A stretch of 64,000 nucleotides of DNA. Source: a bacterium. Its GTDB lineage: Bacteria > UBA8248 > JACPRG01 > G963555815. The notes below the pieces were generated by a model. It saw nothing but the letters and a program-made list of their open reading frames with translations. It had not been told where the DNA came from and searched no databases. The stretch lies in contig CBDHDG010000006.1 of the NCBI GenBank assembly GCA_965261595.1, positions 1,504,001 to 1,568,000 of the forward strand, written 5' to 3'. Below, in pieces: positions 31,361 through 57,141 of the stretch. A program made the position numbers and the translations under genes. Position 1 is the first letter of the stretch. Every line of letters starts with the position of its first letter.

Positions 31361-31833
31361 GCCGATGGCCGGGTAACGCCCAAAAAGAACATACGACGTT
31401 CGGAGGGTTGCGGCGTGACCAGCTTATGTCTCGCGTACGTGGCACGGGGAACCAAACGACTGAGAGACGTCTAGCGTCCCTGCTTCGCCAAGCTCATCTG
31501 GCCGGATGGCGCAGACATCAACCTCTTCCCGGGAAGCCGGATTTCGCTTGGCGATCCGCCATGGTCGCCGTTTTCGTAGATGGTTGCTTTTGGCACGGTC
31601 ACGACTGCGGCAAGAACGTCACACCGAAGACGAACGCTCGGGCGTGGCAGGAGAAAATCGAGCGCAACCAAGCCCGGGACCGGCGAGTCTCTCGCAAGCT
31701 GCGTCAGGCGGGTTGGACGGTGATCCGAATCTGGGAGTGCCACCTCAGAAAGAACCCGAAACGGTGCCTAGCAAGAATCAAGAGGGCAGTAATCAACCAT
31801 AATAGTGGGCGTGGGAGAGATGTTCTGCCATGA
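31357..31833 (+). CDS. vsr: Very short patch repair endonuclease
   Basis: [34 protein letters not shown] coupling to dcm. Confidence 0.93.
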
Positions 31834-31870
31834 ATACAAGATGGTACCAATTTCGTCTCACCGGCCTCCC

Positions 31871-33281
31871 TGGAGTTGACCCGTTTTTGTGGACACCTTC
31901 AGACTGTGCGGAGGAGGGGTTCAGATGCCGAAAACTCATTCACCCTACGCGCCGGAGTACCGGCGCCAGATGGTTGAGCTGGTTCGCTCGGGCCGCACAC
32001 CCGGGGAGCTGGTTCGCGAGTTCGAGTGTTCCGCTTCGGCGATTCGCAACTGGGTACGTCAGGCCGATCGGGACGAAGGCCGTCGTGAGGATGGTCTGAC
32101 AAGCGCCGAGCTTGAGGAGCTGCGACGGCTTCGTCGAGAGGTTCGTCAGCTTCGCGAAGAACGCGAGATACTGGCAAAAGCTACGGCTTGGTTCGCTCGG
32201 GAGACCGGCTCGGTCCGGGCGAAGTCCTCGAGCTCGTGAAGGCGAATCAGGCCCATCATCGGGTGGCCACGATGTGCCGGGTGCTGGGCGTCTCCCCCAG
32301 CGGGTACTACGCGTGGCGAGGCCGTGGGCGTTGTCCTCGTGCGAAGCGCGAGGAGGCGTTGCGTGGCACGATCCGGGCCATCCACGAGGTATCTGGTGGC
32401 ACCTACGGGGCGCCTCGGGTCCATGCCGAGCTGATGGCCGGCGGCTGCCGGGTGAGCCGCAAACGGGTGGCTCGTCTGATGTGCGAGGCAGGGTTGGCCG
32501 GGGTGAGCCGACGCCGAGGCATGCGCACTACGCGCGTGGACCAGAGCCATTGTGTGGTCCCGGACCGGGTCGAACGCCAGTTCCAGGCCGATGCGCCGGA
32601 TCGGCTTTGGGTGGCCGACGTGACCTACGTGCCGACCTGGACGGGGTTCGTGTACCTGGCCATCGTGCTCGACGTGTTCAGCCGCCGGGTGGTGGGATGG
32701 TCCATGACCCACCATCTTCGTACCGAACTGGTGCTCGGGGCGCTGAACATGGCGTTGGGACAGCGCCGGCCCGAAGGGGTCGTGCATCATTCCGACCAGG
32801 GCTCGCAGTACACCTCGCTCGCCTTTGGCAAACGGTGCCGGGAGATGGGGGTGGTTCCCTCGACCGGGTCGGCCGGGGATTGCTTCGACAACGCCATGGC
32901 CGAGAGCTTCTTTGCCACGCTGGAGTGTGAACTCATCGACCGGCGTTCGTTCCATACCCAGGCCCAGGCGCGCATGGCGATCTTCCAATTCATCGAAGGC
33001 TGGTACAACCCACGCCGCCGGCACTCCGCCCTGGGTTACCTCAGCCCCAACGACTTCGAACGCACCGCGGCGAAGGCAACGCCACGTGCGGTGCGCAACG
33101 CTCATCGTCCGGCTCGAGGCGTCCCCGGCGCTTCCCAGAGCGGCGAGCCAAAGGGAAAAACATACCCTCCGGGGGGACCCCATCGATCGGTCTTGGGTAA
33201 GACTGTACGTCCACCGGCTGTCGCTCACCTCAGGGCTGGGGACGACAGCCATAAACTGTCCACGAAAGCGGGGTAAATCCA
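31871..33281 (+). mobile_element. IS3-family IS, apparently intact (orfA 31925-32239, orfB 32236-33276)
   Basis: TG...CA ends with IRs, TCCC duplication on both sides, WVADVTY, HHSDQGSQY, DNAMAESFF. Confidence 0.95.
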
Positions 33282-33474
33282 TCCCAAGAAGACAAGGGAC
33301 AGATCAAGACGATTGGACGATCAATACTCTCTGGGCATGGATGGCCCTATGGGTTGTGTTCCCAACGGCATCATCAGGTCCGTCTACACCGTATACGAAA
33401 CGATCGAGCGGCTCGACCCAGCGCATGATCAGGGAAACTCACAGTGACGCCAAGTACAATTGGCCCACACCTAA

Positions 33475-33750
<276 letters not shown>

Positions 33751-33766
33751 CAGTAGGGAACTCGGC

Positions 33767-34120
33767 ATGCGGTTCAAACTGGACGAGAATCTGCCAGTCG
33801 AACTAGCGGATATGTTTCGCGAGGCCGGGCATGATGCGGTGACTGTGCTCGACCAAGATCTTAGGGGAGCGCGGGATCCTGATCTTGCATCGGCCTGCAT
33901 GCGCGAGGGCCGAGTTATTGTCACGTTCGATACGGATTTTGCGGACATCCGGACGTACCCGCCCGGTGCGTATCCCGGGTTTGTCATATTTCGGCTGGAC
34001 AGCCAAGCGCGCGGCCATGTATTGGAGATCGGAACGCGGTTGCTCAAGATACTGTCCAGCGCCACGATCGACGGTCAGCTCTGGATCGTGGAAGAATCGC
34101 GCGTTCGAGTGCGGCAGTGA
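33767..34120 (+). CDS. DUF5615 PIN-like toxin (VapC45-like)
   Basis: MRFKLDENLP, GHDA.TV, EGRVIVTFDTDF. Confidence 0.9.
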   Translation: MRFKLDENLPVELADMFREAGHDAVTVLDQDLRGARDPDLASACMREGRVIVTFDTDFADIRTYPPGAYPGFVIFRLDSQARGHVLEIGTRLLKILSSATIDGQLWIVEESRVRVRQ

Positions 34121-34121
34121 A

Positions 34122-37100
34122 ATGAAGCGCACGAGTGAGCAGGCATTCGAAACCGTGAACGAGGCGCATTTTCTGGCGAACGGCTATGTCTCCATCGTCG
34201 GAAACGGCTTCGACCGTGAGCGTGCGCTCTTTCCCGACACGATCCTCGCTTTCATCCGGGAGACCCAGCCGAAGGAGTGGGCCAAGCTGGAGTCGCTACA
34301 CGGCGACGGGACCGGTGAGCAGGTGCTCGGCGATCTCTGCAAGTGGATGGACATGCACGGCGCGCTCGCGACGCTCCGGCACGGGTTCAAGTGCTACGGC
34401 CGGACCCTCCGCGCGGCGTATTTCAAGCCGGCGCACGCGCTGAATCCCGAGCTTGAGGCCCGCTACGCCGCCAATCGCCAGGGATTCACCCGCCAACTCC
34501 ACTTCTCGCCGCGCTCCGAACAGTCGATCGACGTTACCCTGAGTCTGAACGGCATTCCGATGGTGACGCTGGAACTGAAGAATCTGCTGACGGGCCAGAC
34601 TGTCGAGGACGCGCGGCGGCAGTACCAGCGTGACCGCGATCCGCGCGAGCCCATCTTCGAGTTCAAGCGCCGCGCGTTGGTTCATTTCGCCGTGGACACC
34701 GAATCCGTTCTCATGACCACACGGCTGGCTGGCAAAGCGACGCATTTCCTGCCTTTCGACAAGGGATTCGAAGGCGCAGCCGGCAACCCGCCCGATCCGG
34801 CTGGCCGGACCTACCGAACGGCGTATCTGTGGGAAGAGGTCCTGCAGCGTGACAGCCTTCTCGACCTTCTCGCCCGCTTCATCCACTTGCAGATCGACGA
34901 GAAGTGCGACGATCAGGGCCGCAAAGTCAAGACGGAGACCATGATCTTCCCCCGTTACCATCAGCTTGAGGCAGTGCGGATGCTGGTGGACGCTGCGCGC
35001 AGCGACGGCGTGGGGCACAACTACCTCGTCGAGCATTCCGCCGGCAGCGGGAAGAGCAACACCATCGGATGGCTTGCCCATCGGCTTGCGTCCCTGCACG
35101 ATGCCGCCAACGAGCGCGTCTTCGACAGCGTGATCGTGGTCACCGACCGCGTCGTGCTCGATCAACAGCTCCAGGACACGATCTACCAGTTCGAGCACAA
35201 GCGCGGCGTCGTTCAGCGTATCGATCAAAGCTCGCGTCAGCTCGCCGAAGCGCTCGAGAATGCGGTGCCGGTGATCATCACGACGCTGCAGAAATTTCCC
35301 TTCGTCTCGCGCCATTTGCTCAAGTTGGCCGAGGAACGCGGGACGACCGGCACGGGAACGCTCACCACCCGCCGTTGCGCCGTCGTAGTCGACGAGGCCC
35401 ATAGCTCTCAGGGCGGCGAGACGGCAACGGATCTCAAGGAAGTGTTAGGCGGCGAGGAGCTTCACGAAGAAGCCAAGAGGCGCGCGGCCGAGGAAGGCCG
35501 GGAAGACATGGAAAAACTGTTCCGCAGCATGGCCAAGCGCGGCAAGCAGGCGAACCTGAGTTTCTTTGCCTTCACCGCCACCCCCAAGCACAAGACGCTC
35601 GCCGTGTTCGGCCGCGATGGGCGACCCGCGCACCGTTACACCATGCGGCAGGCGATCGAGGAGGAGTTCATTCTCGACGTGCTGAAGCACTACACCACGT
35701 ACGAGACGTACTTCAAGCTGCTCAAGGCGTGCGAGGACGATCCCAACGTCGAGCGCAAGAAGGCCGCACGGGCGCTGGCGCGGTTCATGAGTCTGCATCC
35801 GCACAACATCGCGCAGAAAACCGAGGTGATGGTCGAGCACTTCCAGGCCGTCACGCGGCACAAGATTGGCGGTCGGGCCAAGGCGATGGTCGTGACAGGA
35901 TCGCGCCTCGAAGCGGTTCGCTACAAGCAGAGCTTTGATCGCTACATTCAGGAGAAGGGCTACGCCATCAAGTCGCTGGTTGCCTTCTCGGGGAAGGTGC
36001 AGGACGACGAGATCGCGAACGTGACCTACACCGAGCCGGGCATGAACCAGGGCATCTCCGAGAAAGAGCTACCTGAGAAGTTCGCGACGCAGGAGTATCA
36101 AGTCCTGCTCGTCGCGGAGAAATACCAGACCGGATTCGACCAGCCGCTTCTCCACACGATGTACGTGGACAAACGGCTGGCGGGCATCCAGGCCGTGCAG
36201 GCGCTCTCGCGGCTGAACCGTGTGCATCCACGCAAGGAAGATACGTTCGTTCTCGACTTCGTCAACGACCGCGAGGAGATCCAGGAAGCCTTTAAGGCGT
36301 ACTACGAAGGCGCGAAGATGGGCGAGGAAGTAGACCCTGCACGCATGTACGCGATCAAGGCCGAGGTGGATGCGTCGGGTGTCTATCTCGATGAGGAGGT
36401 CGATCGGTTCTGCGCCGTTTACTTCAAGCCGAAGCGAAAGCAGAGCCCGTTGGACCACCAAACCATGAATGCCGCGCTCGATCCGGCGGTGTCACGCTTC
36501 ACCACCCGCCGTGACGACGATGAAGAAGAGGCGGAAGACTGGCGCGGCAAGGTTCGGGCATTCCTGAACTTGTACAGCTTCCTGAGCCAGGTGATTCCCT
36601 ACCAGGACTCCGACCTGGAGCGACTGTACGTGTTCTTACGCCATCTCGCGGCGAAATTGCCGCGTCGGAAGAGCGGACCTGCGTACCGCTTCGATGACGA
36701 CGTGCAGCTTGAGTACTACCGCCTGCAGAAGATCAGCGAAGGCTCCATTTCGCTCGAAGAGGGCGAGGTGCGGCCGCTCGATGGGCCAACGGAGGTCGGG
36801 ACCGGATTGGCGCGCCCGCAACCCATGCCGCTGTCGCAGCTTATCGACATCGTGAACGAGCGCTTCGGCACGGACTTCAATCAGGCCAATCAACTCTTCT
36901 TCGACCAGGTCGTTGAAGCGGCAATGGCCGACGACGGGGTACGACAGGCGGCAACGGTCAATCCCGGCGACAAGTTTAAGTTGGTGTTCAGGGGTTTGCT
37001 TGAGAATCTGTTCGCCGAACGCATGGATCAGAACGAAGACATCTTCGTGCGCTTCATGAACGACGAGCCATTTCGGAACGTGGTGACGGAATGGATGTCT

Positions 37101-37205
37101 TCGGAAGCATATCGGCGGCTGAGGGCTGAAGGTAGCAACAGGGGTTGTTCCGAATCGGACCTGCCTGAGGATCGTCGAACCCAAGCCGGTGGAACGGTAC
37201 GTTAA
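34122..37205 (+). CDS. hsdR: Type I restriction endonuclease subunit R
   Basis: [47 protein letters not shown]. Confidence 0.95.
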
Positions 37206-41291: not shown

Positions 41292-41711
41292 TTCGGACTC
41301 AATCGCGCTGAAGTGATCGGCCGCCTCGGCGCCGACGTCACCGTCAACCACCTCACCAGCGGCGGACGCGTCGCGAACCTGTCGATCGCCACCGACGAGG
41401 GCTACATCGACAAGCAGACCGGAGACCGGGTCGACAAGACCGAGTGGCACCGGGTCGTGACCTTCCAGCCCGGGCTGGTGGACATGTTCGAGAAGCACGC
41501 GACGAAGGGCCGGCTGGTCTATGTGGCGGGCAAGCTGCAGACCCGTCGCTGGAAGAAGGACGACGAGGACTCCGACCGGTTCTCGACCGAGATCCTGCTG
41601 GTTCCGGGCGGGCGCGTGCAGTTCCTCGACAAGCCCAACGGCAACGGCGCGCCGGTGTCGGATCCGGAGACGCCGTCCGCCGAAGCGCCCATGGACGACA
41701 TCCCGTTCTGA
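41292..41711 (+). CDS. ssb: Single-stranded DNA-binding protein (native start codon appears lost)
   Basis: LNRAEVIGRLGAD, TEWHRVV, KG.LVYV.GKLQTRRW, DDIPF tail. Confidence 0.92.
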   Translation, partial: FGLNRAEVIGRLGADVTVNHLTSGGRVANLSIATDEGYIDKQTGDRVDKTEWHRVVTFQPGLVDMFEKHATKGRLVYVAGKLQTRRWKKDDEDSDRFSTEILLVPGGRVQFLDKPNGNGAPVSDPETPSAEAPMDDIPF

Positions 41712-41905
41712 GCGCGCATTCCGTTTCCTCCCTCTACCTGGGCCGGCGCTTCGCGCGTCGGCCCTTTTTCTTGCTGCCCGTTCCGAGACAGCGCCCGTTC
41801 GCGCCTCGCGCCAGCGCTGCGCGCGGCGCTTCGTCCTCCGGCGCCGGCCGGAGGCGGAGACCGGCCGGTATCGGGCGTTCCCCGTTCATCCAGAGGAGGC
41901 CCGTC

Positions 41906-42937
41906 ATGCCGCCCCCATCGTCCCGTTCCGCATCTCCCGCCGCCGACATCGCCGCCGCGCTCGGCGCGTGCGCCGAGGCCGTCTGCCGGCGTTACCTGCC
42001 CCAGGGCAAAAAGCAAGGCCGGTACTGGGTCGCCGGCGATCTCGAAGGCGCTCGCGGCCGCTCGCTCTTCGTCCGCCTGCACGGTCCCGGCGTCCCCGGG
42101 AAGTGGACCGACGCGGCCACCGGAGAGCACGGCGACCTGCTCGATCTCGTCCGGCATCGCTCGGGCGCGCCGACGCTTCGCGCGGCGCTCGCCGAGGCCC
42201 GCGCCTTCCTCGCCCTGCCGGCTCCGCCGGCGTCGGGCGGGAGCTACGACGCAACAGAAGCGGCCCGCCGCCTCTGGCGGCGTTGCCGCGCCATCGACGG
42301 CACCCATGCCGAAGCCTACCTCCACGCCCGCGGACTCGCGCGCTGCCGGTTCCCGGCATTGCGCTTCCATCCCGAGCTTCGCTATCGCGAAGGCTCTTCC
42401 CTGCGCCGTTTTCCGGCGCTGGTCGCCGCCGTGACCGGCGACGACGGCGCCATCCACGGCGTGCAGCGCACCTGGCTCGATTCGCGCTTGCCCGCCAAGG
42501 CGGACGTCGCGGCCCCGCGCAAGGCGCTCGGCCGCATCCACGGACGCGCCGTGTGCTTCGGCAGGCCCGCCGACGGCGCTTCGCTGCTCGTCGGCGAAGG
42601 CATCGAGACGGTGCTGTCGATCGTCACCGCGGCGCCCGGGGTCATTTCGGCGGCCGCGCTCTCGGCCGGAAGCCTCGGCGCCTTCGTGCCGCCTGCCGGG
42701 CTCAAACAGCTCGTCATCGCCCGGGACAACGATTCCGAGGGGGAGCGGGCCGCCCAACGCCTCGCCCGGCGCTGCGCGCGGGCGGGCGTCGCCGCCCACG
42801 TCATCGTCTCCGAATACGGCGACTTCAACGACGACCTCGTTACTCTCGGACCCCGGGCCCTGGCCCTTCGGCTCGCCGCCCTGTTCCCCGCGCCGCAGCG
42901 GGTCGGAGAGAGGGAGGGAAGAGCGGGGGAGGGATGA
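41906..42937 (+). CDS. Toprim-domain primase-like protein of mobile elements
   Basis: GKWTDAATGEHGDLLDL, VGEGIET, ARDND, DFNDDL; GAGGAGG RBS. Confidence 0.85.
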   Translation: MPPPSSRSASPAADIAAALGACAEAVCRRYLPQGKKQGRYWVAGDLEGARGRSLFVRLHGPGVPGKWTDAATGEHGDLLDLVRHRSGAPTLRAALAEARAFLALPAPPASGGSYDATEAARRLWRRCRAIDGTHAEAYLHARGLARCRFPALRFHPELRYREGSSLRRFPALVAAVTGDDGAIHGVQRTWLDSRLPAKADVAAPRKALGRIHGRAVCFGRPADGASLLVGEGIETVLSIVTAAPGVISAAALSAGSLGAFVPPAGLKQLVIARDNDSEGERAAQRLARRCARAGVAAHVIVSEYGDFNDDLVTLGPRALALRLAALFPAPQRVGEREGRAGEG

Positions 42938-43485
42938 ACGGATCCAAAGGAGAAAGAGAGCATGGCGCACATCGTCAATCTCAGGCATGCGCCAGCCCTG
43001 CGGGCGGCGCTCGCGGCCCTTCACGGCAAGCCGCTGGCCTTCTGATGCGCGCCGCTGCCCTGCCATGGGCAGGTCCTCGCCCGCGCCGCGCGGCATGGGC
43101 GGCCTCCGTTCTGGCGGAACGGAGGGGAGAGTGAAGCGCGAGAGGGGCGAACGCCGCGAGGAGGGAGAGAGAGGGCCCCGGGCATCGGCAACACGGAAGG
43201 AGAACCGAAATGCAATCCGTTACCTTCAGGAGCATCGCCCGTACGAGTCGAGGGTCTACCACCATGGCAATCTCGCCGGCGAGGTTGCGGAGCCACTCGT
43301 CGATACGCGTCCGTTGCGGTGACGGGCCATGCCGTCTTCGGGCGATCCCTTCGGGCCGGGCTCTCCGCTGCAATCTCCGCTCCGCTCCGATTTTCGCTTC
43401 TATCCCTATCGCCTCCGCTCGCTGGCGCTCGCTGCGCGCTCCTGTACCTCTTATAAGTGACTCTGCGCTTCAATAGCACGGAATT

Positions 43486-43636
43486 GGGCAGGCCGCCGGG
43501 AGCAACCCTTGCGCGCTCAGTGCCATCAGCACCTCAAGCGGACAGGTGCCCCGGCGGTCCTGCCACGACGGATGCCCCGTGAGGAGTTAGCGCCTTGAGC
43601 GCCAAGTACAGGAGTCGGCAGGCGTCGTGGCAGGCC
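43486..43636 (+). ncRNA. Predicted IS110 bridge RNA (target-binding and donor-binding loops)
   Basis: Two stem-closed loops, each with an internal hairpin; four 8-9 nt segments match target and donor junctions; RNA ends approximate. Confidence 0.85.
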
Positions 43637-43671
43637 CAGCCACCATCGCACAGATTAGGGAGGGAGACGAA

Positions 43672-45042
43672 TTGGCAGATCTCAAGTGGTTTGTCGGAAT
43701 CGATTGGGGGTCCCGAATCCACCAGGCCTGCATCCTCGACGCGAACGGCGACGTTCGAGCCGAGCATGCGTTCGCCCACGGCGGCGCCGGTTTCGCCGCG
43801 TTGACGGACTGGATTCTGTCCGGCACCGAGGAGGCGCCGGCGGACCAGGTCGGCGTGGCCATCGAGACGCCTCGCGGACCCGTGGTCGAAACGCTCCTCG
43901 GATGCGGCTTCGCCGTTCACTCCATCAACCCCAGGCAACTGGACCGCTTCCGCGACCGTTACTCGCACGCCGGGGCGAAGGACGATCGTCGCGACGCCCT
44001 GGTGCTGGCGTCGGCGCTACGCACCGACCCGCACCGGCTGCTGCGGGTCAAACCAACGGCTCCCGCAATCGTCGAGCTGCGCGAGTGGTCCCGCATCGTC
44101 GAGAGCCTGACGCGCGAGCGGGTGCGCCTGTCCAATCGCATGTGCGACCAGCTCTGGCGTTACTACCCCGAGTTCATCAATGTCGTGGAGGACTTCAATG
44201 TTCACTGGGCACTGGCCCTTTGGAACCGCGTGCCGACGCCCGCGGCCGTGCGCGGCGTCCGGCTTTCCACGCTCGAGAAGCTTCTGAAAAAGCACCGCGT
44301 TCGACGTATCACCGCCGAGGAGCTCCGCGACCAGCTTACCGCGCGCGCCATCGACATCGACCCCAGCGCAATACGCGCCGCCGAGACCCACGCCCGCATC
44401 ATTGCGAAGCAGCTTGCGCTCGTGAACCAGCAGTTGACAGAGGCCAACTCACGTCTCGAGGCGCTCGTCACCCAGCTCGCCGAAGCCGCCCCCGATCCGG
44501 ACGAAAGTTCCGAACCGGGGCAACACAAAGAACAGCGTGACGTGGCTATCCTGCGTTCTCTGCCCGGAGTCGGCACGGTTATCCTCGCCACGCTGTTCGC
44601 AGAGGCCGATGACGCTCTGCAGCGCCGAGACTACCACGCGCTGCGCTGCTTGTGCGGCGTGGCGCCCGTCACCAAGCGCTCCGGCAAGAGCATGCGCGTC
44701 TCCCTCAGACGCGCCGCGCATCGTCGCCTGCGCAATGCCACCTACCATTGGGCACGCGTGGCCATGCAGAAGGACCCCGTCTGCAAAGCCAAGTACCAGG
44801 TGCTTCGCTCCCGAGGCCACGGCCACGCCCGTTCGCTGCGCTCCGTCGCAGACCGCCTCCTCAATGTCGCCTGCGCCATGCTTCGCGACCAGACACTGTT
44901 CGACCCGCAGCACGCCAGCGCTGCAGCAGGTTCACACCGCGAAGCGGTCAATGGAATCTCAATTGAATCATCTGTTGTTGGTCCTGTGGAGCTTGTGGGC
45001 GAGAGGGGCGAGAGTGTGGGCAACGCGGTGGGCAACGCGTAA
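43672..45042 (+). CDS. IS110 DEDD recombinase/transposase
   Basis: VGIDWG, AIE, KDDRRDA; C-terminal SLPGVG and APVTKRSGK (Ser); GGAGGGAG RBS before TTG. Confidence 0.95.
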   Translation: MADLKWFVGIDWGSRIHQACILDANGDVRAEHAFAHGGAGFAALTDWILSGTEEAPADQVGVAIETPRGPVVETLLGCGFAVHSINPRQLDRFRDRYSHAGAKDDRRDALVLASALRTDPHRLLRVKPTAPAIVELREWSRIVESLTRERVRLSNRMCDQLWRYYPEFINVVEDFNVHWALALWNRVPTPAAVRGVRLSTLEKLLKKHRVRRITAEELRDQLTARAIDIDPSAIRAAETHARIIAKQLALVNQQLTEANSRLEALVTQLAEAAPDPDESSEPGQHKEQRDVAILRSLPGVGTVILATLFAEADDALQRRDYHALRCLCGVAPVTKRSGKSMRVSLRRAAHRRLRNATYHWARVAMQKDPVCKAKYQVLRSRGHGHARSLRSVADRLLNVACAMLRDQTLFDPQHASAAAGSHREAVNGISIESSVVGPVELVGERGESVGNAVGNA

Positions 45043-45470
45043 GCGTTGTCCACGGACTTGTCCATACGGCCCGCAGGGCTCGCGCCGGTCCTCAGGACTC
45101 GTCCACAAATCCATAGGACTACCCCCTTGCAAGTTGGTGAGGAGTCCGCTTGCCGGGCCGGCGCCCGAGACCCGCGTCTCAATCCCGGAACCGCACAGGG
45201 CGTCCGGGACAGTGGCTAACAATATCCCTCTCGACGTGATGGCCCATTGTCCCACACGTGCTCGCTGCGCCAACCCCGCCTCCGGCGGGGTCCTCCTCTT
45301 CGTTCCGGCCCTGGCTTGCAAGGCTACGGCGCTGAAGCGCCTAGGCGCGCCAAGAACCGCGACGGTGGCTTTGCAGCGCGCGCGTGGGCCACTCAACCAT
45401 CACGTTCGGAGACTCTCTCCGCACAACGAACCATAACGGTTCTCTACACTCAATCCATAAGGAGAGCATC

Positions 45471-46394
45471 ATGCACGATATCGACAACATCTCAGAACAG
45501 AACCAGTCCGTCACCGCCACCGTCTGCGACCAGGCGGCTCTCTTCGGAGCAACCCCGGAGCGCGACGAATTCGACAACCGGGAGGTCTGGGACCCGGAGA
45601 ACGCCCTCTCCGCCGTCACGGAAGCCTTCCGCATCATGGCACACGGCGTCGCCCCCGACGGAACGCAACTCGCCGACGAGCGCGAGAGCCTGCTCTGGGG
45701 ATTCGTCAACATGCTCGACGCCCAGACCCAACGCCTCGACCGCGCGGCCGACAGGCTCCTCCCCGACATGCGCGACCTCCAGCGAGAGCAGGACGGCTCG
45801 GAGATCCGGTCCCGAGAGCTCGAACTCGTCACCGACCGAACCAAGAACCTCACGGACCGGCGGGACGCCTTCGAGCAACTCAGAGATGCAGCGGCCGAGG
45901 CCTACCGGGTCGAGACCGGAGACCTCTGGCGGCCCCGGCGCGGGTCCCACACCTCCCAGACCGGCAAGCTCACTTCGGCCATGATCGATGCCCGCGACTT
46001 CCAGCGTGCCCGCAGGGACCGCGAGAACAAGGCGCTCCTGCCCCAGGGAACGCTCGTCGCGGTGGCAGGCGGCAAGCACGCCGGCGACGCAGGCGCCATC
46101 ATCCGCACCCTCGAGAAGCTCAAGGCCAAGTACGACGACGTGGTCCTGGTCCACGGCGGTGGCCCCGGCGTCGAGAAGATCGCGGCCAAGTGGGCGGACC
46201 GCAACGGCGTCCACCAGATCGTCTGCAAGCCCAACTGGGACGCACACGGACGCGCGGCGCCCTTCCGGCGCAATGACGAGCTGCTCGATCTCCTCCCCAA
46301 GGGCGTCATCGCGTTCCCGGGTTCGGGCATCACCGACAATCTGGTCGACAAGGCGCGCAAGCTCGGCATCCCGGTCCAGTGCGTCGCCGCCTGA
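45471..46394 (+). CDS. DUF2493 / SLOG-family protein
   Basis: LVHGG.PG.EKIAA.WA, AAPFRRND, AFPGSGIT.NLVDKA; typical neighbour of Toprim genes. Confidence 0.85.
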   Translation: MHDIDNISEQNQSVTATVCDQAALFGATPERDEFDNREVWDPENALSAVTEAFRIMAHGVAPDGTQLADERESLLWGFVNMLDAQTQRLDRAADRLLPDMRDLQREQDGSEIRSRELELVTDRTKNLTDRRDAFEQLRDAAAEAYRVETGDLWRPRRGSHTSQTGKLTSAMIDARDFQRARRDRENKALLPQGTLVAVAGGKHAGDAGAIIRTLEKLKAKYDDVVLVHGGGPGVEKIAAKWADRNGVHQIVCKPNWDAHGRAAPFRRNDELLDLLPKGVIAFPGSGITDNLVDKARKLGIPVQCVAA

Positions 46395-46772
46395 GCCCAA
46401 CGACCTCGCGGGTCGCGTCGCCACCCGGCGGCGCGGCCCGTTCTTCTTCCGCGTTGCCCGCTGCCGCACCGCCCGCCGCTCTTCGCACCGCACCGGTGCG
46501 GACCCCACTGCTGACTCCGTCCCGCACTGCTCCATGCACCATGCTCCGCACGGCCGTCCGCTCAATCGCCGCGGCGGCTCCCCCGCGCGTCCCGCGCCCG
46601 CGGAGATCCCCCCTTCGCTCGTTCCTCACATTTTGGTCTGTCGGACGCCGGTCGGCGCTTTTACTCTCACACCTGACGCAGCGGGCTGCATGTGCGCTCC
46701 ATGCGCGCGCTTGTCCTGCATTCCTGTGCGCAGTCAACGACCTGCGGCGTCTCTGTGATGCCGGAAAAAGTC

Positions 46773-47409: not shown

Positions 47410-49613
47410 ATGGTCGATCAAACATCGTTGAACCAAGCGTGGGGCGCACTGCGCGTCGTGCTCAGGGAGGCCTTCTCGTTCTATGAGATCAAGGATCTCG
47501 CCGGATTGGCCGGCATCGACGTCACTCGGCTGGCCCGTCTTGAACAGAAGGCCGGCGGCGGCGCATCAAAGCGTCAACTCATGACCGCATTGGATCGCGA
47601 GATCGCCCAGCTCGGCCATGCAGACAAGGCGCGCGTGCTGAACCATTTCGCGGAAGAGGTCGTTCGCCAGCCGCACTACGAGAGCGAGCGCCTCGACGAC
47701 TATCTTGAACGATTGGGCTGGCAGTTCGCGGATGGGAAACTGGTTCCGATCAACGTGTTCGACGTCGCCGAACTCGCCAACCTGCCCGATGTATCGAAGA
47801 CCGATTTGCTGAAGGCGGCCACCCGCCTTCGCGACGGCGACTTGAGCGGTGCGCTGGGCGCAGCCTGCGCAGCCGTGGACTCGGCAACCAATGCCGTCTA
47901 TGCGGACCACCGCCTCGGCCCGGAACCTGCCATCGAAAGACAGCTTCCAGACGCGCTGCACGAAGGCGCTCAACGCCAAGAAAACCATTTCACGATTGCC
48001 CGGCGAGCTGACCGGCATGGGGTGGAGCGCAGCCGACGCCAAGATGCTCTCGGACAATCTGCGCGGCGCCCTGAACCAGGGCGCCTATCCCCCGCTCTAG
48101 GGTTTTGTTGGACACTCGATTGATCCATGATTCATGGAGAAAGGGGTGTCGCGATGAACGAACAAAAGCAAGAGGGGGCTTTGGCGGAGGGCGCCCGCAG
48201 GGCGAACGGAGCCAAGGCCCCAGGGCATCGCAGTGAGCGGGGTCGGTTCTCCTGCCAGCGCAAGCGGGAGGCGGTCCTGCGTCTTTTGCGGGGCGAGAGC
48301 CTGGAGACGCTCTGCCGCGAGTTGGGCACGACAGCGGTTCGGCTTTCCGCCTGGCGCGAGGCGTTCCTTCGCGGGGGCGAGGCGGCGCTCAAAGCCCGCC
48401 CGGCGGATGAGCGGGACGAGGAGAACGCCCGGCTCAAGGCCAAGGTGGGCGAACTCACGATGGAGGGCGAGGTCCTGCGGGAGAAGATCGACCGCCTGGA
48501 GGCCGGCCGCCCTTTAGCCGGCAGGAGGTGGAGGCGATGAGTCAGGCCCGCTTCACCTCCACGGGCAGAGCCTACGGCCTGAAGCGGGTGTGCGCCCTTT
48601 GGGGCTTGGCGCGCTCCACGGTCTACGCGCAACGGCGGCGAGAGGCGGTCCCCGTTCATGAACGCCCCACGCCCAATAAGCGCGGCCCTGTAGGCCCGTG
48701 CACCGATGCGGAACTCCTCGGCCACATCCGGCAGGTCCTGGAGGACTCTCCCTTCCATGGCGAGGGCTACCGCAAGGTGTGGGCGAGGCTGCGCTTCACG
48801 GGCATCCGCACCAGCAAGGAGCGGGTGCGTCGCCTGATGCGGGAGGCGGGGCTTCAGGCCCCCCACCGGGTGGGCAAACCCCGAGGTCCCAAGGCCCACA
48901 ACGGGACCATCCGCACCGAGCGGCCAGACCGAATGTGGGGCACGCACATGACGACGACGGTGACCACCGAGGAGGGGATGGCCTCGGTGTTCGTGGCGGT
49001 GGATCACTGCTCGGTGGACTGCGTGGGGATCCATGCGGCCAAGAGCGGCAACCGCTTCGAGGCCCTGGAGCCGATCCGGCAGGGGGTCGCCGAGCGCTTC
49101 GCCGGCTTGGAGGCGGACGTCGCCGAGGGGCTTAAAGTTCGTCACGACCACGGCCCCGCCTATCTGTCCGATGACTTTCAGCGGGAGATCGCCTACCTGG
49201 GCATGACCAGTTCGCCCAGCTTCGTGCGGGCGCCCGAGGGAAATGGCTACTGTGAGTGGTTTATCCGCATCTTGAAGGAGAATCTCCTGTGGGTGCGCTC
49301 TTTCGCCACCGTAGAGGAACTGCGGTGGGCGCTGCTTGAGTTCAAGAACCTGTACAACCATCATTGGATTCTCGAGGGCTACGGCTACCGAACGCCGGCC
49401 CAGGCAAGGCAGGAAAAACTCGCTCAAGTTGCGGAGGCCGCATGAGGTCGAATACCCTCACCCGAGTGTCCAATAACCCAGGGGCGGTCCACCTACGTCA
49501 TGCAAGCGCTCCGTTCGAGAATGAGCGACGTCCACGCTTCCAAACCCGTGCTGAACCCCCTGGTCTACGACTCTCTCAAGTGGGCAGCGCTCATCGTGCG
49601 CATGTTGAAATAG
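47410..49613 (+). pseudogene. Abi_C/HEPN-like abortive-infection protein, frameshifted and IS-interrupted
   Basis: Removing the IS and one CCTA restores NQGAYVMQALRSRMSDVH..; frameshift at about 47925. Confidence 0.65.
48088..49491 (+). mobile_element. IS3-family-like IS, copy 2, first catalytic Asp changed to His
   Basis: Near-identical to 11073-12476; CCTA target duplication; WGTH instead of WGTD. Confidence 0.95.
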
Positions 49614-51929: not shown

Positions 51930-54900
51930 CTACTGCAAGACCGCCGATCGTGCAGCGCCTTCCGACGCCGTCGTCACGCGTTTTTCGATTGCCTTCAATG
52001 CCGCAATCGCTCGCCAGCCGTGTTCCTGGCTCGAACCGTATTGGCGGAGCAGCGCACGGTCCGAGCCGTTTCCATAACTCTCGAGAACCCTGATGCCAAA
52101 CGCGAGGATGCGTTTCCTGTCGAAGCGCGACCAATGACGAAAGTATGCGACCTGGCTCGTGGGGTCGGCGAGCGCATCCCGGCTGATAGCAGCGGCTTCG
52201 GCTGGGAAGCGCCCGACGACCGAACGCATGACCGTCTCGTCTCCCGGCAGCAGATCCCATCCGTCTCGCGACACGTCCTCGCACTCGCGTAGGACGTCGA
52301 GTGCCGCTCCGTTCCCAGGCTGCATCAGAGCCGCGACTTCAGGCTTGCACGCCTCCAGCCTTTCTTCCTCGTCAAGATCGGCCCGGTTGCACCAGTACAG
52401 AATCGCGCCGCAAGCCTTCATCGCTATCGCCCACGGGGCCTCGCCCTCGGTTCGATCGGCCGGGAGCGTGCAGCCGAGCCTCCCCAGCGCGATGTGCGCC
52501 GCGACGAAGGCATAGATGTCACTCTGCGGCATGGTCCGATTGTCCGCCGGCGGCGGGCTCGTCCACCGCACAATGCTCTCCCCGACGTCCGGATCAGCGA
52601 ACGATCCGAGCTCCAGAAGCAGCGGCCCGAGAAAGAGCGCGCTCTCCTTCGCTCCCCGCGACGCCATCTCCAGCAGCGTCTTCTTGTCCCGGACCGCGAG
52701 ACCCGCCACCACCTCGCAAAACGCATCCGAATAGGGATGATCGAACTGCGCCAAGTAGATGCCCCATGCTTCCTCCTGAAATTCGCCGTCCGTCGGCTGC
52801 GCCAGGCACTTGCCAATGCGCTCAAGCACGACCGTCCGATGCTCGCGCGCACCCTCATCCAGCGCGCCCAGACTCTGAAGCGCCTCCATGATGATCGACG
52901 CGACCCAGGGATCGCACCCGCCGAGCAACTCTTCGATCCTCTCGATCAATTCCGCCCGCTCGGCCTCGTCCTCTGTATCACAACGAATGGCCGCCGCATC
53001 CATGAGCGCAAGGCGCAGGTGGTACGGCGCACTGTCCCAATTCGCCGATATTGCGCCGGGACAGGAACGACGCCGGAACTCCGTCCCACCGAGACAGCGT
53101 CAGGACGAGATGGAGCTGTCCCGGAGACATCTCCCGCGCCATCAGCTCCCGCAAGACGCCACCGCCTCCTGCCTCGCCAGGCCGTCCGAAGCGTCCGCTT
53201 CGCGCCATGAACACGCCGCTGCCCAGCTCGGCACAGATCCTGGAAATCCCTGGCGAGCCGTGTGACCGCTGCGGAAACACATAGCCGATCGCGAACAGGT
53301 GGCTTCGTAGCCTGGCTCTTCCAATCTCGGTTTCCTCGCCAATCCGAACAGACTCGTCCGCGATGCGCCGGTCCAGGATCCCGACGATGTTCAACGCATC
53401 CTCAAGATCCCGACCAGCCGCCATCCGTCCGGGAAACACTGCGAAGAACGCTCGATCGCACCGGCTCCACTGCACAAGGGAAGACTCCTCGAACTCGACG
53501 TGGTCGACACCCTCGCCGCCCACCCGGAAGCGGAGGGTACGTGCTTCCTCACGGAGCCCAATCCACAGTCGCCGGCACTGCGCCTCCGCCCAATCCTGCA
53601 CATCTCTCCCGCATTGCCCGTCCAAGCAGGCCCAGACCGATCCGGACTCCTCCAGCCTTGGCAGCAGCCGTTCGAGCATGCGCTCGTCGTCGACAGCCCC
53701 GATGATCAGGTCCTTTCGCCCGGCATGCAGCGGCGCGGCAAGCGCTCTCAGGATCGGTTCCGGCGACTCCCCGGCTTGCCGAACCACCGCCTCAGCCGCG
53801 AAGGCATCAAGCAACATCTCGTGCGGAAAACTCACCCTGTCCCCGCGCAGCGTCAGCAAACCCCTGTCGATGACGGAATGGCGAACCGGCACCGGCACGC
53901 CGCTCGCGTCCATCAGTCGATCAAATACGCGGATCGTCAGGCTGAACGCGAACCGCTCGCACAGCCAAGCGGCCACCTGCGAAAGAACGCGAATGCCATC
54001 GCTTGCCACCCCGCTCAACCGATTGCGGGCGAACGCATCGAACAAGGCATAGCGGCTGCTTCCCGGTGGGAGAGTGGCCCCCACTGCTCCGACGAGCGTT
54101 GCCTCCAGGCCTGTCGACACGGCGGCTAGGAGATGCTCGATCGCCTCCGGTCGCACCTTCCCTTCCGAAGCCGCCGCTGCAATGGCGACCTTGGTTTCCA
54201 TTGCCGGCGGCGGCACTTCGATCTCCCGCAGCTCCAGAAGATCGCCGCGCACCGGCGCCACCTGAGACGCCACCACGACCCCGCCTTTGTATCTGGCTGT
54301 CAGCGCGGCCATCCCCCGGGTGAACCGCCCCTGCAGATCCTCCGCGCACTCGTTGTACCCGTCGACAATGAACAGGATGGGCCGACCCAGCCGCCAAGCG
54401 TCGTTGAGGAGTTGCACTCCCGACCGCGCTCCCAGCAGTCCCGCCTCACGCTCCACCAGCTCCTTGACGCTGCCGCCGAAATCCTTGCCCTGCACGCTGA
54501 TCGCAACACCGTCCCGAGCATTGAACGCGACGCCCGATGCCTCGGCCAGCATCGACTTCCCGCACCCCGACGGCCCCTTCAGCAACACACCGCCGCGTCG
54601 CTCGAACACAAGACCGGCAACATCGCGCGACGAGATGGTCTCTCCACCCGATCGGCATGCGAACGGAACCAGTGCCTCGCCATTCCCATAGGTCCGGCAG
54701 AACATCGCCCTGTACTGCCGAAGACGGTCTTCCGCCTCCGCCAGCCCGGGATCACAAGCCGCACACACCGATGTTGCCAGCGTCAACCCAAGATGATCCG
54801 AAAATTGCTTCCACCGCTCGACCGACCACGCTCCTCGCGTCCGCTTGCCAAGCTCTCTCTCCAGCCCGTCCTGTCCAATGACCGAAACCTTGCTGTTACC

Positions 54901-55326
54901 TGGGAAGACCTGCGAACCCGATGCAATTCCGGGCGAGAACACGAGCCCCGCATTGATGAACGGCGGATCTGTCCCGGCGAAGGCGCCCGCGGCATTCTTT
55001 ACCTCTAACGCCGCATCGAGTGCCTGCCGATAAGGGTTCCGGAAGTCCTTCCAGTGTCCGGAGGCCAGATGGACTTGCCACGGCCCGTTCTCGCCGCCAC
55101 GCACCGGGCGGGCAAAGCCTTTCGCCTCGATGACCAGAGCAAGGCCGTCCAAGACAACCAGCAAGTCGATCTGCCGCGACCTGATCTCAAAATTCGCCAA
55201 CACGACCGCCCGCCGCCCGTCGGCGACAAGCAACCGCTCGATCTCCCGCAACGTGGAATGTTCCGACTCGTGCTCGATCAGGCCGCCAATGCGGATGTCT
55301 AGCGTCTTTGTATCTCTGTCGTTCAT
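51930..55326 (-). pseudogene. NERD nuclease, STAND/NACHT-like NTPase and helical repeats; frameshift at about 53050
   Basis: SE..QIDLLV..VIEAK..NPY.Q (NERD); GPSGCGKS; LFIVDGYNE; F.HE; the second frame continues as a HEAT-like region. Confidence 0.8.
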
Positions 55327-55390
55327 CGCCTCGGTCCCGATTTCAGGCCACCGACGGCGCGTCGCCGCAACTCCCATGCCGAGTTCAGCA

Positions 55391-55891
55391 TCACTCCGCC
55401 ATCACCACCTCGCCGAGGGTCCGCTCGTGCCACCGCCTCGTATACGCCTCGCGAAGAACGATTCCCGGCCGATGGCCGACCTCGTCGAGCAGTCCTGCCA
55501 TCGACACGAGCCTCTCGCGCAATCCGAGCATCACGCCGCAACGCAGACTCGCCTTGTCCGGGCCGCACAGGATCCAGTCATCGTCGCGGCCCAGGACGTG
55601 CGCCGAAAGCGAGGCTTCGCCCCTGTCGAGCGCGATTTCGCCCGCGCGGATCGCGAGCACGGCACGTTCCAGATCCCCGACCGCATGAATACCCGCCAGC
55701 CTGTCCCGGAGCCGCGCCTCGTCGATCCGCCGTTCGGGTCGTCGGTGCTGGAACCCCGTCTGGGTCTCCGTGATGCAATCCTCCACGGTCTCCACGCCGT
55801 AGCCCCCTGTCAGCGCCCGCCACAAACCCGTCCGGTGCGCCTCCTAGATCACATTCGTGTCCACGAGCACGGTACCGCGATGCCGAGCCAT
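55391..55891 (-). pseudogene. PIN-domain protein with in-frame TAG at 55844-55846
   Basis: MARHRGTVLVDTNVI*EAH.., LDRGE, CGPDKA acidic residues. Confidence 0.78.
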
Positions 55892-55897
55892 GACGCC

Positions 55898-56978: not shown

Positions 56979-57141
56979 CGGCTCCTCCGCGCGTATTTCT
57001 TGCCCTTTTTATTATGCAACTTTTATATGCGATTTTTACTCTGCGCACAACACGTCAGAACCCAACGCCGCCGTTCCCCGGAGCCCGCCCTGTATCGGCG
57101 CGACACCCAACATCCCGATCCGGCGACGTCGACGCCGTTGT

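What the first reader, a model, noticed from the sequence alone, without database searches (positions are those of the whole stretch)
43433..45152. IS110 element with a fully readable bridge RNA: all four guides match its own target and donor junctions
Seen: TCC is repeated at 43440-43442 and 45145-45147. The reconstructed empty target is tgcgcgc-TCC-gcttg and the circle junction is gtgaggag-TCC-tgtac. Loop 1 of the 5' non-coding region holds TGCGCGCTC (43510-43518, identical to left target 43433-43441) and CAAGCGGA (43535-43542, reverse complement of TCCGCTTG at 45145-45152). These flank a GTGC/GCAC hairpin and are closed by GGCAGG.CCGCCGGG/CCCGGCGGTCCTGCC. Loop 2 holds GTGAGGAGT (43579-43587, identical to the right end 45137-45145) and GTACAGGA (43606-43613, reverse complement of the left end 43440-43447). 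These flank a GCGC/GCGC hairpin and are closed by a perfect 12-bp stem CCTGCCACGACG/CGTCGTGGCAGG. Known: IS110 members such as IS621 use a bispecific bridge RNA with this layout. Inference: this is a natively programmed RNA-guided recombinase with intact DEDD and Ser residues, a TC(C) core and symmetric 8-nt right guides, and is a candidate new programmable tool.
Basis: partly seen in the sequence, partly recalled or inferred. Interest (0 to 1): 0.88.

Follow-up and report, generated by a model that had tools for sequence, protein, structure and literature searches.

The report
Intact IS110 element with bridge RNA
This is an apparently complete IS110-type jumping gene whose own small RNA carries the address of both its insertion site and its own ends; the reading is correct, but the kind has been well known since 2024, so this is one more member and not a new mechanism.

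Summary
Every string and coordinate in the finding is in the sequence. None of 20000 dinucleotide shuffles of the 5' non-coding end contained two or more of the four guide words.

The element is about 1705 bp (43443-45147), flanked by TCC. It sits in the toprim/DUF2493 spacer of a conjugative element. Two IS-free plasmids align straight across the reconstructed empty site.

The ORF is an IS110-family RNA-guided transposase (Pfam PF01548 and PF02371, NCBIfam NF033542). The DEDD and Ser residues are present. Its predicted fold best matches the IS621 and ISCro4 synaptic complexes.

A covariance model built only from 32 relatives finds 43481-43639 at 138 bits. Sixteen of the 32 base pairs covary. 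Across 10 specificity classes the loop-1 guides track the flanks: 9-12 of 12 matches with the own flank against a mean of 6.8 with other flanks. Loop-2 guides track the element ends.

Three caveats apply. The core is ambiguous (TC or CC). Activity and usefulness as a tool are untested.

Verdict: a new member of a known kind, of moderate to low interest.

The parts
43433..43439 (+). Left target flank (LT), TGCGCGC. It is matched by the left target guide.
   Evidence: Identical to 43510-43516. The flank diverges among relatives exactly here.
43440..43442 (+). Left copy of the repeated TCC. It contains the 2-nt core, either TC (43440-41) or CC (43441-42).
   Evidence: In relatives the left junction reads LT-NC-CTGTAC and the right junction reads GAGT-CC-RT. 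A clean 2-nt CC duplication is seen in L073 and L019.
43443..43671 (+). Left non-coding end (LE), 229 nt. It holds the right-donor half site (TGTAC 43443-47), a -10-like hexamer, a 5' stem-loop and the bridge RNA.
   Evidence: The LE (229 nt) is longer than the RE (102 nt), as in the IS110 group (PMC11208160).
43452..43457 (+). -10-like hexamer TATAAG. It pairs with a -35-like hexamer in the RE only across the circle junction.
   Evidence: TTGGTG(45134-39)-17 nt-TATAAG, 8 of 12 to consensus. Nothing comparable is found in the integrated state. This is a consensus match only; function is inferred.
43462..43482 (+). Weak 5' stem-loop preceding the two guide-bearing stem-loops.
   Evidence: fold. 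Relatives have what looks by eye like a stronger stem of about 9 bp at the same place. A 5' stem-loop is part of the published consensus.
43481..43639 (+). Bridge RNA body: two stem-loops, each with a large internal loop.
   Evidence: Covariance model R1, built from 32 relatives without the window, scores 138.4 bits, E 4.5e-28. The consensus fold has 32 pairs, 16 of them with compensatory changes.
43491..43559 (+). Target-binding stem-loop. Closing helix 43491-43506 with 43546-43559; apical hairpin 43520-23 with 43529-32.
   Evidence: helix 1 has 13 pairs, 8 with changes on both sides, and 98.6% of cells paired.
43510..43518 (+). Left target guide (LTG), TGCGCGCTC. It equals the top strand of LT plus TC, so it would pair with the bottom strand.
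   Evidence: This column block varies and tracks the left flank in relatives.
43535..43542 (+). Right target guide (RTG), CAAGCGGA. It is the reverse complement of TCCGCTTG (45145-52), so it would pair with the top strand.
   Evidence: It tracks the right flank in relatives.
43559..43634 (+). Donor-binding stem-loop. 12-bp closing stem 43559-70 with 43623-34; inner helix 43574-76 with 43617-19; apical hairpin 43590-93 with 43599-602.
   Evidence: (I2), 23 and 27: helix 3 has 8 pairs, 5 of them with changes on both sides.
43579..43587 (+). Left donor guide (LDG), GTGAGGAGT. It equals the last 9 nt of the element plus core (45137-45145).
   Evidence: Four LDG variants each match their own right end.
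43606..43613 (+). Right donor guide (RDG), GTACAGGA. It is the reverse complement of TCCTGTAC (43440-47).
   Evidence: Relatives have GTACAGGGAC together with TCCCTGTAC. The window lacks one G in the guide and one C at the end, a matched indel.
43672..45042 (+). Recombinase CDS of 456 aa from TTG 43672. The longest ORF starts at GTG 43627 (471 aa) and would overlap stem 2.
   Evidence: The purine-rich run GGAGGGAG lies at 43658-43665. Homologues align only from residue 18-21 of the 471-aa ORF.
45043..45144 (+). Right non-coding end (RE), 102 nt. It contains the -35-like TTGGTG (45134-39) and the left-donor half site GTGAGGAG (45137-44).
45145..45147 (+). Right copy of TCC.
   Evidence: RE-TCC is found in 48 of 64 unique sequences.
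45148..45152 (+). Right target flank (RT), GCTTG.
   Evidence: IS-free homologous spacers run straight from ...GCGCT(T/C)(C/G) into G(C/G)(T/C)TGC.

Best explanation
The region is one intact copy of an IS110-group insertion sequence, about 1.7 kb (43443-45147, flanked by a repeated TCC). It is inserted in the spacer between a toprim-domain gene and a DUF2493/YspA gene of a conjugative element.

The element encodes a DEDD(RuvC-like)/Ser recombinase. In its left non-coding end it encodes a bridge RNA of roughly 160-175 nt with two internal loops. Loop 1 (LTG 43510-18, RTG 43535-42) would base-pair with both strands of the 15-bp target TGCGCGC-TCC-GCTTG. Loop 2 (LDG 43579-87, RDG 43606-13) would pair with the joined element ends GTGAGGAG-TCC-TGTAC.

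By analogy with IS621, the excised circle joins RE to LE. That junction may create a promoter (TTGGTG-17-TATAAG) that transcribes the RNA. A recombinase tetramer then holds target and donor on the two loops and exchanges strands at the core through 5'-phosphoserine intermediates.

Shown here: sequence identity of the guides, family membership of the protein, conservation and covariation of the RNA, covariation of guides with flanks and ends, and the insertion boundaries. Inferred: transcription, circle formation, catalysis and present-day activity.
For: (1) All four guide matches are exact and at the stated positions. None of 20000 shuffles gave two or more of them.

(2) Protein family. Pfam PF01548 2.7e-33 and PF02371 4.2e-18. 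NCBIfam NF033542 169.4 bits, cut-off 140. A profile of 30 homologues hits only IS621 (8wt6, 3.7e-16) and ISCro4 (9t56, 2.4e-13) in the PDB. The AlphaFold model (pLDDT 79.1) has IS621 or ISCro4 chains as its 10 best Foldseek PDB matches (E 6e-12 to 6e-11, target-normalised TM 0.64-0.69).

(3) Catalytic residues. D26, E80, D120, D123 and S352 are invariant. In one search four of them align with IS621 D11, D102, D105 and S241; E60 lies two columns off E80 (residue numbers from PMC11208158).

(4) RNA. The 5' non-coding region is 72-82% identical in 75 of 78 related loci. The consensus fold is two stem-loops with internal loops. In it 97.4% of cells are paired, against 91.4% in shuffles and 32-41% when partners are slid. 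Sixteen pairs covary against 6.6 expected, with 0 of 500 shuffles as high. A model built without the window scores 138.4 bits on 43481-43639 and nothing else in the window scores above 10 bits. The same RNA is found in 4 of 4 plasmid loci from cultured alphaproteobacteria.

(5) Target guides track flanks. In 43 of 45 usable unique loci, at least 9 of 12 LT+RT bases match the locus's own loop 1. In a 10 x 10 matrix of specificity classes the diagonal is 9-12 (sum 110) and the off-diagonal mean is 6.84. None of 200000 permutations reached the observed sum.

(6) Donor guides track ends. GTGGGGAG, GTGAACAG, GTGGGAAG and the window's GTGAGGAG are each found again at their own right end followed by TCC.

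(7) Boundaries. Ten of the 25 listed plasmid records carry toprim and DUF2493 genes adjacent without an IS. Two fetched spacers (L079, L080) align contiguously across the reconstructed empty site (score 38 each, 0 of 300 shuffles).

(8) There are no terminal inverted repeats, and LE 229 nt exceeds RE 102 nt. Both are typical of the IS110 group.
Against: - Only one copy lies in the 64-kb window, and there is no second target-like site (5 hits at 3 mismatches against 6.1 expected). Recent mobility is therefore not shown.
- The junction promoter is weak: 8 of 12, with only TTG of the -35 hexamer. It was found with an E. coli-type consensus.
- No Rfam family matched, so the RNA assignment rests on my own model and on the literature.
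- Under a CC-core reading, the LTG and the LDG each carry a non-pairing A at the second core position. Under a TC-core reading, the right end lacks the T that all relatives have.
- The handshake-guide positions give no consistent signal across relatives, judged by eye.
- Two of 45 relatives (L015, L021) sit in sites that do not match their own guides. One named plasmid copy (L083) does not visibly match its left flank (by eye).
- The protein is only 18-19% identical to IS621, so mechanistic details are extrapolated.
Confidence: 0.9

Rival explanations
2. The four matches are DNA-level features, namely sub-terminal repeats bound by the transposase, and not guides in an RNA.
For: The RDG and LDG words are literally repeats of the element's own ends. 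IS1111-group relatives have sub-terminal inverted repeats (PMC11208160).
Against: Loop 1 matches the flanking host DNA, not the element. It changes with the flank across 10 specificity classes while the scaffold stays conserved. The words sit in internal loops of helices supported by 16 covarying pairs, which argues for selection on an RNA structure. For IS621 the RNA mechanism was shown experimentally and structurally.
Confidence: 0.015
3. The matches are chance matches in G+C-rich sequence.
For: The region is 69% G+C, and short G+C-rich words recur often.
Against: None of 20000 shuffles contained two or more of the four words. The positions coincide with the guide columns of a family alignment. 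Flank and guide covary across relatives.
Confidence: 0.005

Closest known systems
IS621 (E. coli) bridge recombinase and bridge RNA (Durrant et al. 2024, PMC11208160; Hiraizumi et al. 2024, PMC11208158; passages read)
   Same: - Protein with DEDD RuvC-like, coiled-coil and Tnp(Ser) domains.
[quoted passage not shown]
- Loop 1 addresses the target and is variable; loop 2 addresses the donor and is conserved.
[quoted passage not shown]
- A short core is repeated at both junctions, there are no terminal inverted repeats, and a promoter may be rebuilt across the circle junction.
(Searches compared.)
   Different: - Only 18-19% identical in structural alignment; sequence E-value 2e-7 for the single protein.
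- The recombinase is 456 aa against 326 aa. The stretch between the two Pfam domains is longer: helices 146-286 in the model against residues 123-188 in IS621.
- The core is TC or CC instead of CT.
- The right-hand guides are 8 nt including the core, against 4-7 nt in IS621. The target recognised is therefore 15 bp.
- Durrant et al. already note that some orthologues have longer RTGs.
ISCro4 transposase (PDB 9t56)
   Same: Second-best sequence and fold match in the PDB (2.4e-13; target-normalised TM up to 0.69). It was solved as a synaptic complex of target-binding loop, donor-binding loop, target DNA and donor DNA.
   Different: A distant relative at 18-19% identity. I read no paper about it; the name comes from the PDB entry title only.
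Unnamed IS110 copies in Vicinamibacterales metagenome-assembled genomes and alpha/gammaproteobacterial genomes (L001-L078), and on plasmids of Microvirga ossetica, Methylocystis bryophila, Sinorhizobium fredii NGR234 and Skermanella sp. TT6 (L081-L084)
   Same: Same subfamily. The recombinases are 51-65% identical. The bridge-RNA scaffold is 72-82% identical and scores 108-134 bits with model R1. The ends share ...GTGGGGAGT-CC-CTGTACC..., and the layout is the same.
   Different: - The window's element has its own target specificity (TGCGCGC/GCTTG), seen in none of the other 9 classes.
- Its left-donor half site GTGAGGAG is unique among the 64 unique sequences.
- It has one C fewer at the end-core boundary, with a matching loss in the RDG.
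- Its C-terminal tail is about 40 aa longer.
- Public records annotate these copies only as 'IS110 family transposase'.
IS1111 group of the IS110 family (seekRNA or bridge RNA encoded in the right end)
   Same: Same recombinase family and the same RNA-guided principle.
   Different: IS1111 elements have a long RE that carries the RNA, plus 7-17-bp sub-terminal inverted repeats. Here the RNA is in the LE, LE 229 nt exceeds RE 102 nt, and no terminal inverted repeat is present.

Membership tests
IS110 family (IS110 group) bridge-RNA insertion sequence | [quoted passage not shown] | tested here: met
   PF01548 at 2.7e-33 covers residues 23-181, the full profile. D26, E80, D120 and D123 are invariant in 30 homologues. 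D26, D120 and D123 align with IS621 D11, D102 and D105. E80 lies two alignment columns from IS621 E60 in the HMMER output; I take it as homologous from the shared I-E-(A/T) motif.
IS110 family (IS110 group) bridge-RNA insertion sequence | C-terminal Tnp domain (PF02371) with the conserved catalytic Ser followed by Gly | tested here: met
   PF02371 at 4.2e-18. S352-G353 are invariant and align with IS621 S241-G242.
IS110 family (IS110 group) bridge-RNA insertion sequence | Curated family model scored above its cut-off | tested here: met
   NCBIfam NF033542 'IS110 family RNA-guided transposase', 169.4 bits, cut-off 140.
IS110 family (IS110 group) bridge-RNA insertion sequence | Overall fold like the solved bridge recombinases | tested here: met
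   The 10 best Foldseek PDB matches are IS621 or ISCro4 chains, E 5.8e-12 to 5.8e-11, target-normalised TM 0.64-0.69. The model has pLDDT 79.1.
IS110 family (IS110 group) bridge-RNA insertion sequence | No terminal inverted repeats; a short core repeated at both junctions | tested here: met
   In 12 of the 13 offsets tried, at most 7 of 20 terminal positions match; one offset (+4) gives 10 of 20. The longest matching run is 4 nt. TCC lies at both junctions.
IS110 family (IS110 group) bridge-RNA insertion sequence | Non-coding RNA in the longer left end: a 5' stem-loop plus two stem-loops with internal loops, the first variable and the second conserved | tested here: met
   LE 229 nt against RE 102 nt. 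Fold and covariation. The loop-1 columns vary and the loop-2 columns are nearly invariant. Model R1 scores 138.4 bits.
IS110 family (IS110 group) bridge-RNA insertion sequence | Loop 1 complementary to both strands of the target and co-varying with it | tested here: met
   In the window, 9 nt and 8 nt match exactly. In relatives, 43 of 45 usable unique loci reach at least 9 of 12. Matrix test.
IS110 family (IS110 group) bridge-RNA insertion sequence | Loop 2 complementary to the joined element ends (the donor) | tested here: met
   9 nt and 8 nt match exactly. Four LDG variants each match their own right end. There is a matched indel in the RDG and the left end.
IS110 family (IS110 group) bridge-RNA insertion sequence | Promoter rebuilt across the RE-LE circle junction | tested here: inconclusive
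   TTGGTG-17-TATAAG appears across the junction only, 8 of 12 to consensus. None is found in the integrated state. This is a consensus match and not evidence of transcription.
IS110 family (IS110 group) bridge-RNA insertion sequence | RNA-dependent recombination of donor into target; circular intermediate | not testable with these tools
   Needs RNA-seq, junction PCR and a recombination assay.
IS1111 group | Guide RNA in a long right end; 7-17-bp sub-terminal inverted repeats | tested here: not met
   The RNA is in the LE, the RE is only 102 nt, and no inverted repeat is present. Definition taken from PMC11208160.

The most novel reading that the evidence does not exclude
The element may be an active bridge recombinase from a clade far from IS621, IS622 and ISCro4 (18-19% identity). 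It would naturally read a 15-bp target. Members of this clade share one donor code (…GTGGGGAGT-CC-CTGTAC…) but carry many different target loops. Co-resident copies could then be mobilised by each other's RNA in trans. This is suggested by L015 and L021, which carry one guide set but sit in sites that match the guides of a sibling element in the same genome. If so, the clade would offer a set of natural, target-orthogonal RNAs that all work with one recombinase and one donor.
Probability: 0.25. Interest if true: 0.5.

Novelty: new member of a known kind. Interest (0 to 1): 0.3.

Why it matters
The result shows that a bridge RNA can be read correctly from raw sequence alone, all four guides included. 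It documents a well-populated subfamily in soil Vicinamibacterales and in alphaproteobacterial plasmids, with at least 10 natural target specificities on one conserved scaffold.

For genome annotation, it marks the insertion as a mobile element inside a conjugative element and fixes its boundaries.

As a tool candidate it is incremental. Bridge RNAs were already predicted for 85.7% of ISfinder IS110-group elements, and covariation was analysed in thousands of elements (PMC11208160). Orthologue engineering for human cells is already in print or preprint (search listing and abstract beginnings only).

Tried and rejected
- Rfam 15 scan of 42900-45700 at E up to 1 gave only three sub-threshold chance hits (Flavo-1, snoU82P, mir-138). 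No bridge-RNA family matched.
- A second copy or a second target in the window: the 15-mer target allowing 3 mismatches gave 5 hits against 6.1 expected. Model R1 gave no second hit above 10 bits.
- A near-identical copy on plasmids: megablast of 42400-46400 found only a 122-nt DUF2493 match.
- A sigma-70 promoter in the integrated state: none found.
- Resolving the core to TC or CC. Relatives keep CTGTAC at the left end (56 of 63 unique relatives), which favours TC. They also keep GAGT before CC at the right end, which favours CC. The IS-free spacers have indels just upstream and do not decide. This is left open.
- Handshake guides (PMC11208158). In the window, the two bases after the RTG (AC) and after the RDG (AG) would pair with the non-cognate GT and CT under the CC-core reading. 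Across relatives the pattern is inconsistent, judged by eye, so I make no claim.
- Named plasmid copies. In L084 (Microvirga) the left flank TTTATGC-AC matches its LTG 9 of 9. L083 (Skermanella) does not visibly match. In L081 and L082, CTGTAC was not found within 90 nt upstream.
- Nineteen of the 64 unique sequences were dropped before the flank test. In 12 the right end was not found in the stretch held. In 7 the left end was non-canonical or truncated.
Full report
**Observation.** I read 43200-45400. Every string in the finding is at the stated coordinates.
- TCC lies at 43440-42 and 45145-47.
- TGCGCGCTC at 43510-18 equals 43433-41.
- CAAGCGGA at 43535-42 is the reverse complement of 45145-52.
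- GTGAGGAGT at 43579-87 equals 45137-45.
- GTACAGGA at 43606-13 is the reverse complement of 43440-47.

A script re-located all four words. In 20000 dinucleotide shuffles of the 184-nt 5' non-coding end, each word appeared alone in 15-121 shuffles, and no shuffle held two or more.

The 3' arm given for stem 1 (43550-64) and the 5' arm given for stem 2 (43559-70) share CCTGCC 43559-64, so they are mutually exclusive as written. The minimum-free-energy fold gives these bases to stem 2. The family consensus splits them: 43559 goes to helix 1 and 43562-64 to helix 3.

**The protein.** The ORF 43627-45042 (471 aa) carries PF01548 (DEDD_Tnp_IS110, 2.7e-33) and PF02371 (Transposase_20, 4.2e-18). It passes NCBIfam NF033542 'IS110 family RNA-guided transposase' at 169.4 bits against a cut-off of 140.

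The protein search returned 7761 homologues. The best non-self hits are 77-85% identical. In an alignment of 30 of them, D26, E80, D120, D123, S352 and G353 are invariant.

A profile of that alignment hits only two distinct PDB sequences: IS621 (8wt6, 3.7e-16) and ISCro4 (9t56, 2.4e-13). In that alignment D26, D120, D123 and S352-G353 sit opposite IS621 D11, D102, D105 and S241-G242 (residue numbers from Hiraizumi 2024, PMC11208158, passages read). HMMER places IS621 E60 two columns from E80. I take them as homologous from the shared I-E-(A/T) strand end.

An AlphaFold model (pLDDT 79.1, pTM 0.67; residues 1-14 and 435-471 disordered) has IS621 or ISCro4 chains as its ten best Foldseek PDB matches. 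These have E 5.8e-12 to 5.8e-11, target-normalised TM 0.64-0.69 and 18-19% identity. TasR and Nop5-type proteins follow.

The true start is probably TTG 43672, giving 456 aa. It is preceded by GGAGGGAG at 43658-65. Relatives align only from residue 18-21. The upstream GTG lies inside stem 2.

**The RNA.** The 198 nt after the left TCC fold into a small 5' hairpin and two long stem-loops with internal loops (-91.7 kcal/mol, z = -2.9). Rfam has no matching family.

One scan of genome contigs with the protein alignment gave 78 loci at 51-65% identity. Most are multi-copy elements in Vicinamibacterales metagenome-assembled genomes. Some are from alpha- and gammaproteobacteria. The non-coding region is 72-82% identical in 75 of these 78 loci, which gives 63 unique relatives.

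On 33 sequences the consensus fold is the same two stem-loops, with 32 pairs.
- 97.4% of cells are paired, against 91.4% in shuffles and 32-41% with slid partners.
- 16 pairs have changes on both sides, against 6.6 expected.
- 0 of 500 shuffles reach any of the five measures.

A covariance model built from the 32 relatives alone finds 43481-43639 at 138.4 bits (E 4.5e-28). Nothing else in the window scores above 10 bits. The same model finds the RNA upstream of 'IS110 family transposase' genes on plasmids of Microvirga ossetica, Methylocystis bryophila, Sinorhizobium fredii NGR234 and Skermanella sp. TT6, at 108-134 bits in 4 of 4 loci.

In the alignment the left end CTGTACC is conserved and similarity stops immediately upstream of it. 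The right end is ...GTGGGGAGT-CC followed by variable sequence.

Of the 64 unique sequences (window included), 48 carry their own 8-nt LDG word followed by TCC downstream of the CDS. One has TTC instead, and 15 have no match in the stretch held.

For the flank test I dropped 19 of the 64 sequences. In 12 the right end was not found, and in 7 the left end was non-canonical or truncated. Of the remaining 45, 43 have at least 9 of 12 flank bases (7 LT plus 5 RT, core excluded) matching their own loop 1.

I then took one representative for each of the ten distinct specificities, setting the other 35 aside. In the guides-by-flanks matrix the diagonal is 9-12 (sum 110) and the off-diagonal mean is 6.84 (maximum 10). 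None of 200000 random permutations reached the observed sum, and the diagonal is the unique column maximum in 10 of 10 cases.

Donor guides covary too. The LDG 9-mers are GTGGGGAGT (54), GTGAACAGT (5), GTGGGAAGT (3), GTGAGGAGT (the window, 1) and GTAGGAAGT (1). The first four are each found again at their own right end. Relatives have RDG GTACAGGGAC with the junction TCCCTGTAC. The window has GTACAGGA with TCCTGTAC, which is a matched one-base loss.

**Boundaries and context.** The element lies between a DUF7146/Toprim ORF (41444-42937) and a YspA/DUF2493 ORF (45384-46394). A distant blastn of 42000-46400 hit 380 plasmid records. In 10 of the 25 listed, toprim and DUF2493 genes are annotated adjacent under one match that skips the IS.

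In two fetched examples the spacer is 333 nt and 295 nt (L079 from Rhizobium sp. X9 p.1; L080 from a Geminicoccaceae plasmid). Both align contiguously across the reconstructed empty site (score 38 each, 0 of 300 shuffles). So the element is an insertion of 1705 bp (43443-45147, counting one TCC).

It has no terminal inverted repeats, and LE 229 nt exceeds RE 102 nt. The wider window is a conjugative element with TrwC, TrwB, restriction-modification genes and other insertion sequences.

**Core.** TCC is repeated, but the family core is a dinucleotide. In relatives the left junction is LT-NC-CTGTAC, where N is mostly C, G in the L001 group and A in L084. The right junction is GAGT-CC-RT.

The window fits either reading. 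It can be GCGCGC-TC-CTGTAC, which conserves the left end and gives a perfect LTG. Or it can be GAGGAGT-CC-GCTTG, which conserves the right end. I could not decide between them.

**Mechanism.** The layout is the one established for IS621 (Durrant 2024, PMC11208160, passages read).
- The first loop addresses the target and the second the donor.
- The 5' sides pair with the bottom strand over 8-9 nt, and the 3' sides pair with the top strand.
- The core is included in all four pairings.
- A promoter is rebuilt across RE-LE in the circle.

Here a -35-like TTGGTG (45134-39) and a -10-like TATAAG (43452-57) come to 17-nt spacing only across the junction (8 of 12 to consensus). No promoter is seen in the integrated state. 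Strand exchange through phosphoserine intermediates at the core is inferred from the conserved residues. So is excision by the same complex, or by donor half-site recognition (abstracts only: PMC13626964; bioRxiv 10.64898/2026.08.31.748434).

**Comparison and novelty.** All sequence-testable defining features of an IS110-group bridge-RNA element are met. The junction promoter is inconclusive, and activity cannot be tested here. IS1111-group features are not met.

Relative to IS621 the recombinase is about 130 aa longer and very divergent, the core differs, and the right-hand guides are longer, so the target is 15 bp. Longer RTGs in some orthologues are already noted in print.

Bridge RNAs had already been predicted in 85.7% of ISfinder IS110-group elements, and covariation had been analysed over 5511 target pairs. 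This is therefore a new member of a known kind.

Noticed in passing
L015 and L021 compared with L019 and L026 (all from contig OZ219745.1): Two copies are 99.7% identical to the L019 element and carry its guides, yet sit in sites that match those guides at only 6 of 12 bases. The guides of the co-resident L026-type element match the same sites at 9-10 of 12. Both element types share the same donor ends, so this may be insertion directed in trans by a sibling's bridge RNA.
   Followed up: partly
L001, L005, L009, L011: In this group the dinucleotide before CTGTAC at the left junction is GC, while the right junction has CC after GAGT. LTG and RDG read GC, whereas RTG reads CC. The two junction cores therefore differ at the first position.
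   Followed up: no
Alignment columns equivalent to window 43588-43589: The two LDG bases opposite the CC core are UU in 42 of 64 unique sequences, then CU in 10, CC in 5, UC in 4 and UA in 2 (including the window). The donor core would therefore mostly be read by G-U wobble pairs and not by Watson-Crick pairs.
   Followed up: partly
window 11064-12430, 48079-49445 and 62989 to the window end: Three direct copies (97-100% identical over the 300 nt compared) of another insertion sequence. One copy has a 305-aa ORF with HTH_21 and rve integrase-core matches, so it is IS3-like. The IS110 element lies between the first two copies.
   Followed up: partly
window 13105-18199 and 57142-60075: A TrwC relaxase and a TrwB coupling protein mark a conjugative element. 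A second ORF (57142-60075) shares the TrwC helicase domains but gave no TrwC relaxase-domain match. Two 300-nt stretches of its DNA are 76% and 81% identical to the first gene, which suggests two related transfer modules in one window.
   Followed up: no
window 22159-37205 and 52978-63033: A defence-type gene cluster. It includes type I restriction-modification genes (HsdM 24872-26353, an S fragment, HsdR-like 33885-37205), a Dcm-type methylase (30257-31360) and a HATPase_c_3 protein. It also holds an IS1595-like and an IS3-like transposase. Further on lie a NERD-domain protein, an IrrE-like peptidase and an AbiEii toxin-like ORF (62200-63033).
   Followed up: no
window 6117-6282 and 8678-8843: Two 166-nt direct repeats, 92% identical, flank the hydantoinase B/oxoprolinase ORF (6293-8500).
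   Followed up: no
window 45016-45039: A perfect 12-nt tandem duplication (GTGGGCAACGCG twice) lies at the 3' end of the recombinase CDS. It falls within a C-terminal tail (residues 435-471) that the model leaves disordered.
   Followed up: no
L084 (Microvirga ossetica plasmid): This IS110 copy of the same subfamily is interrupted by an IS3-family element. Its LTG still matches the left flank 9 of 9 (TTTATGC-AC), and its core reads AC.
   Followed up: partly
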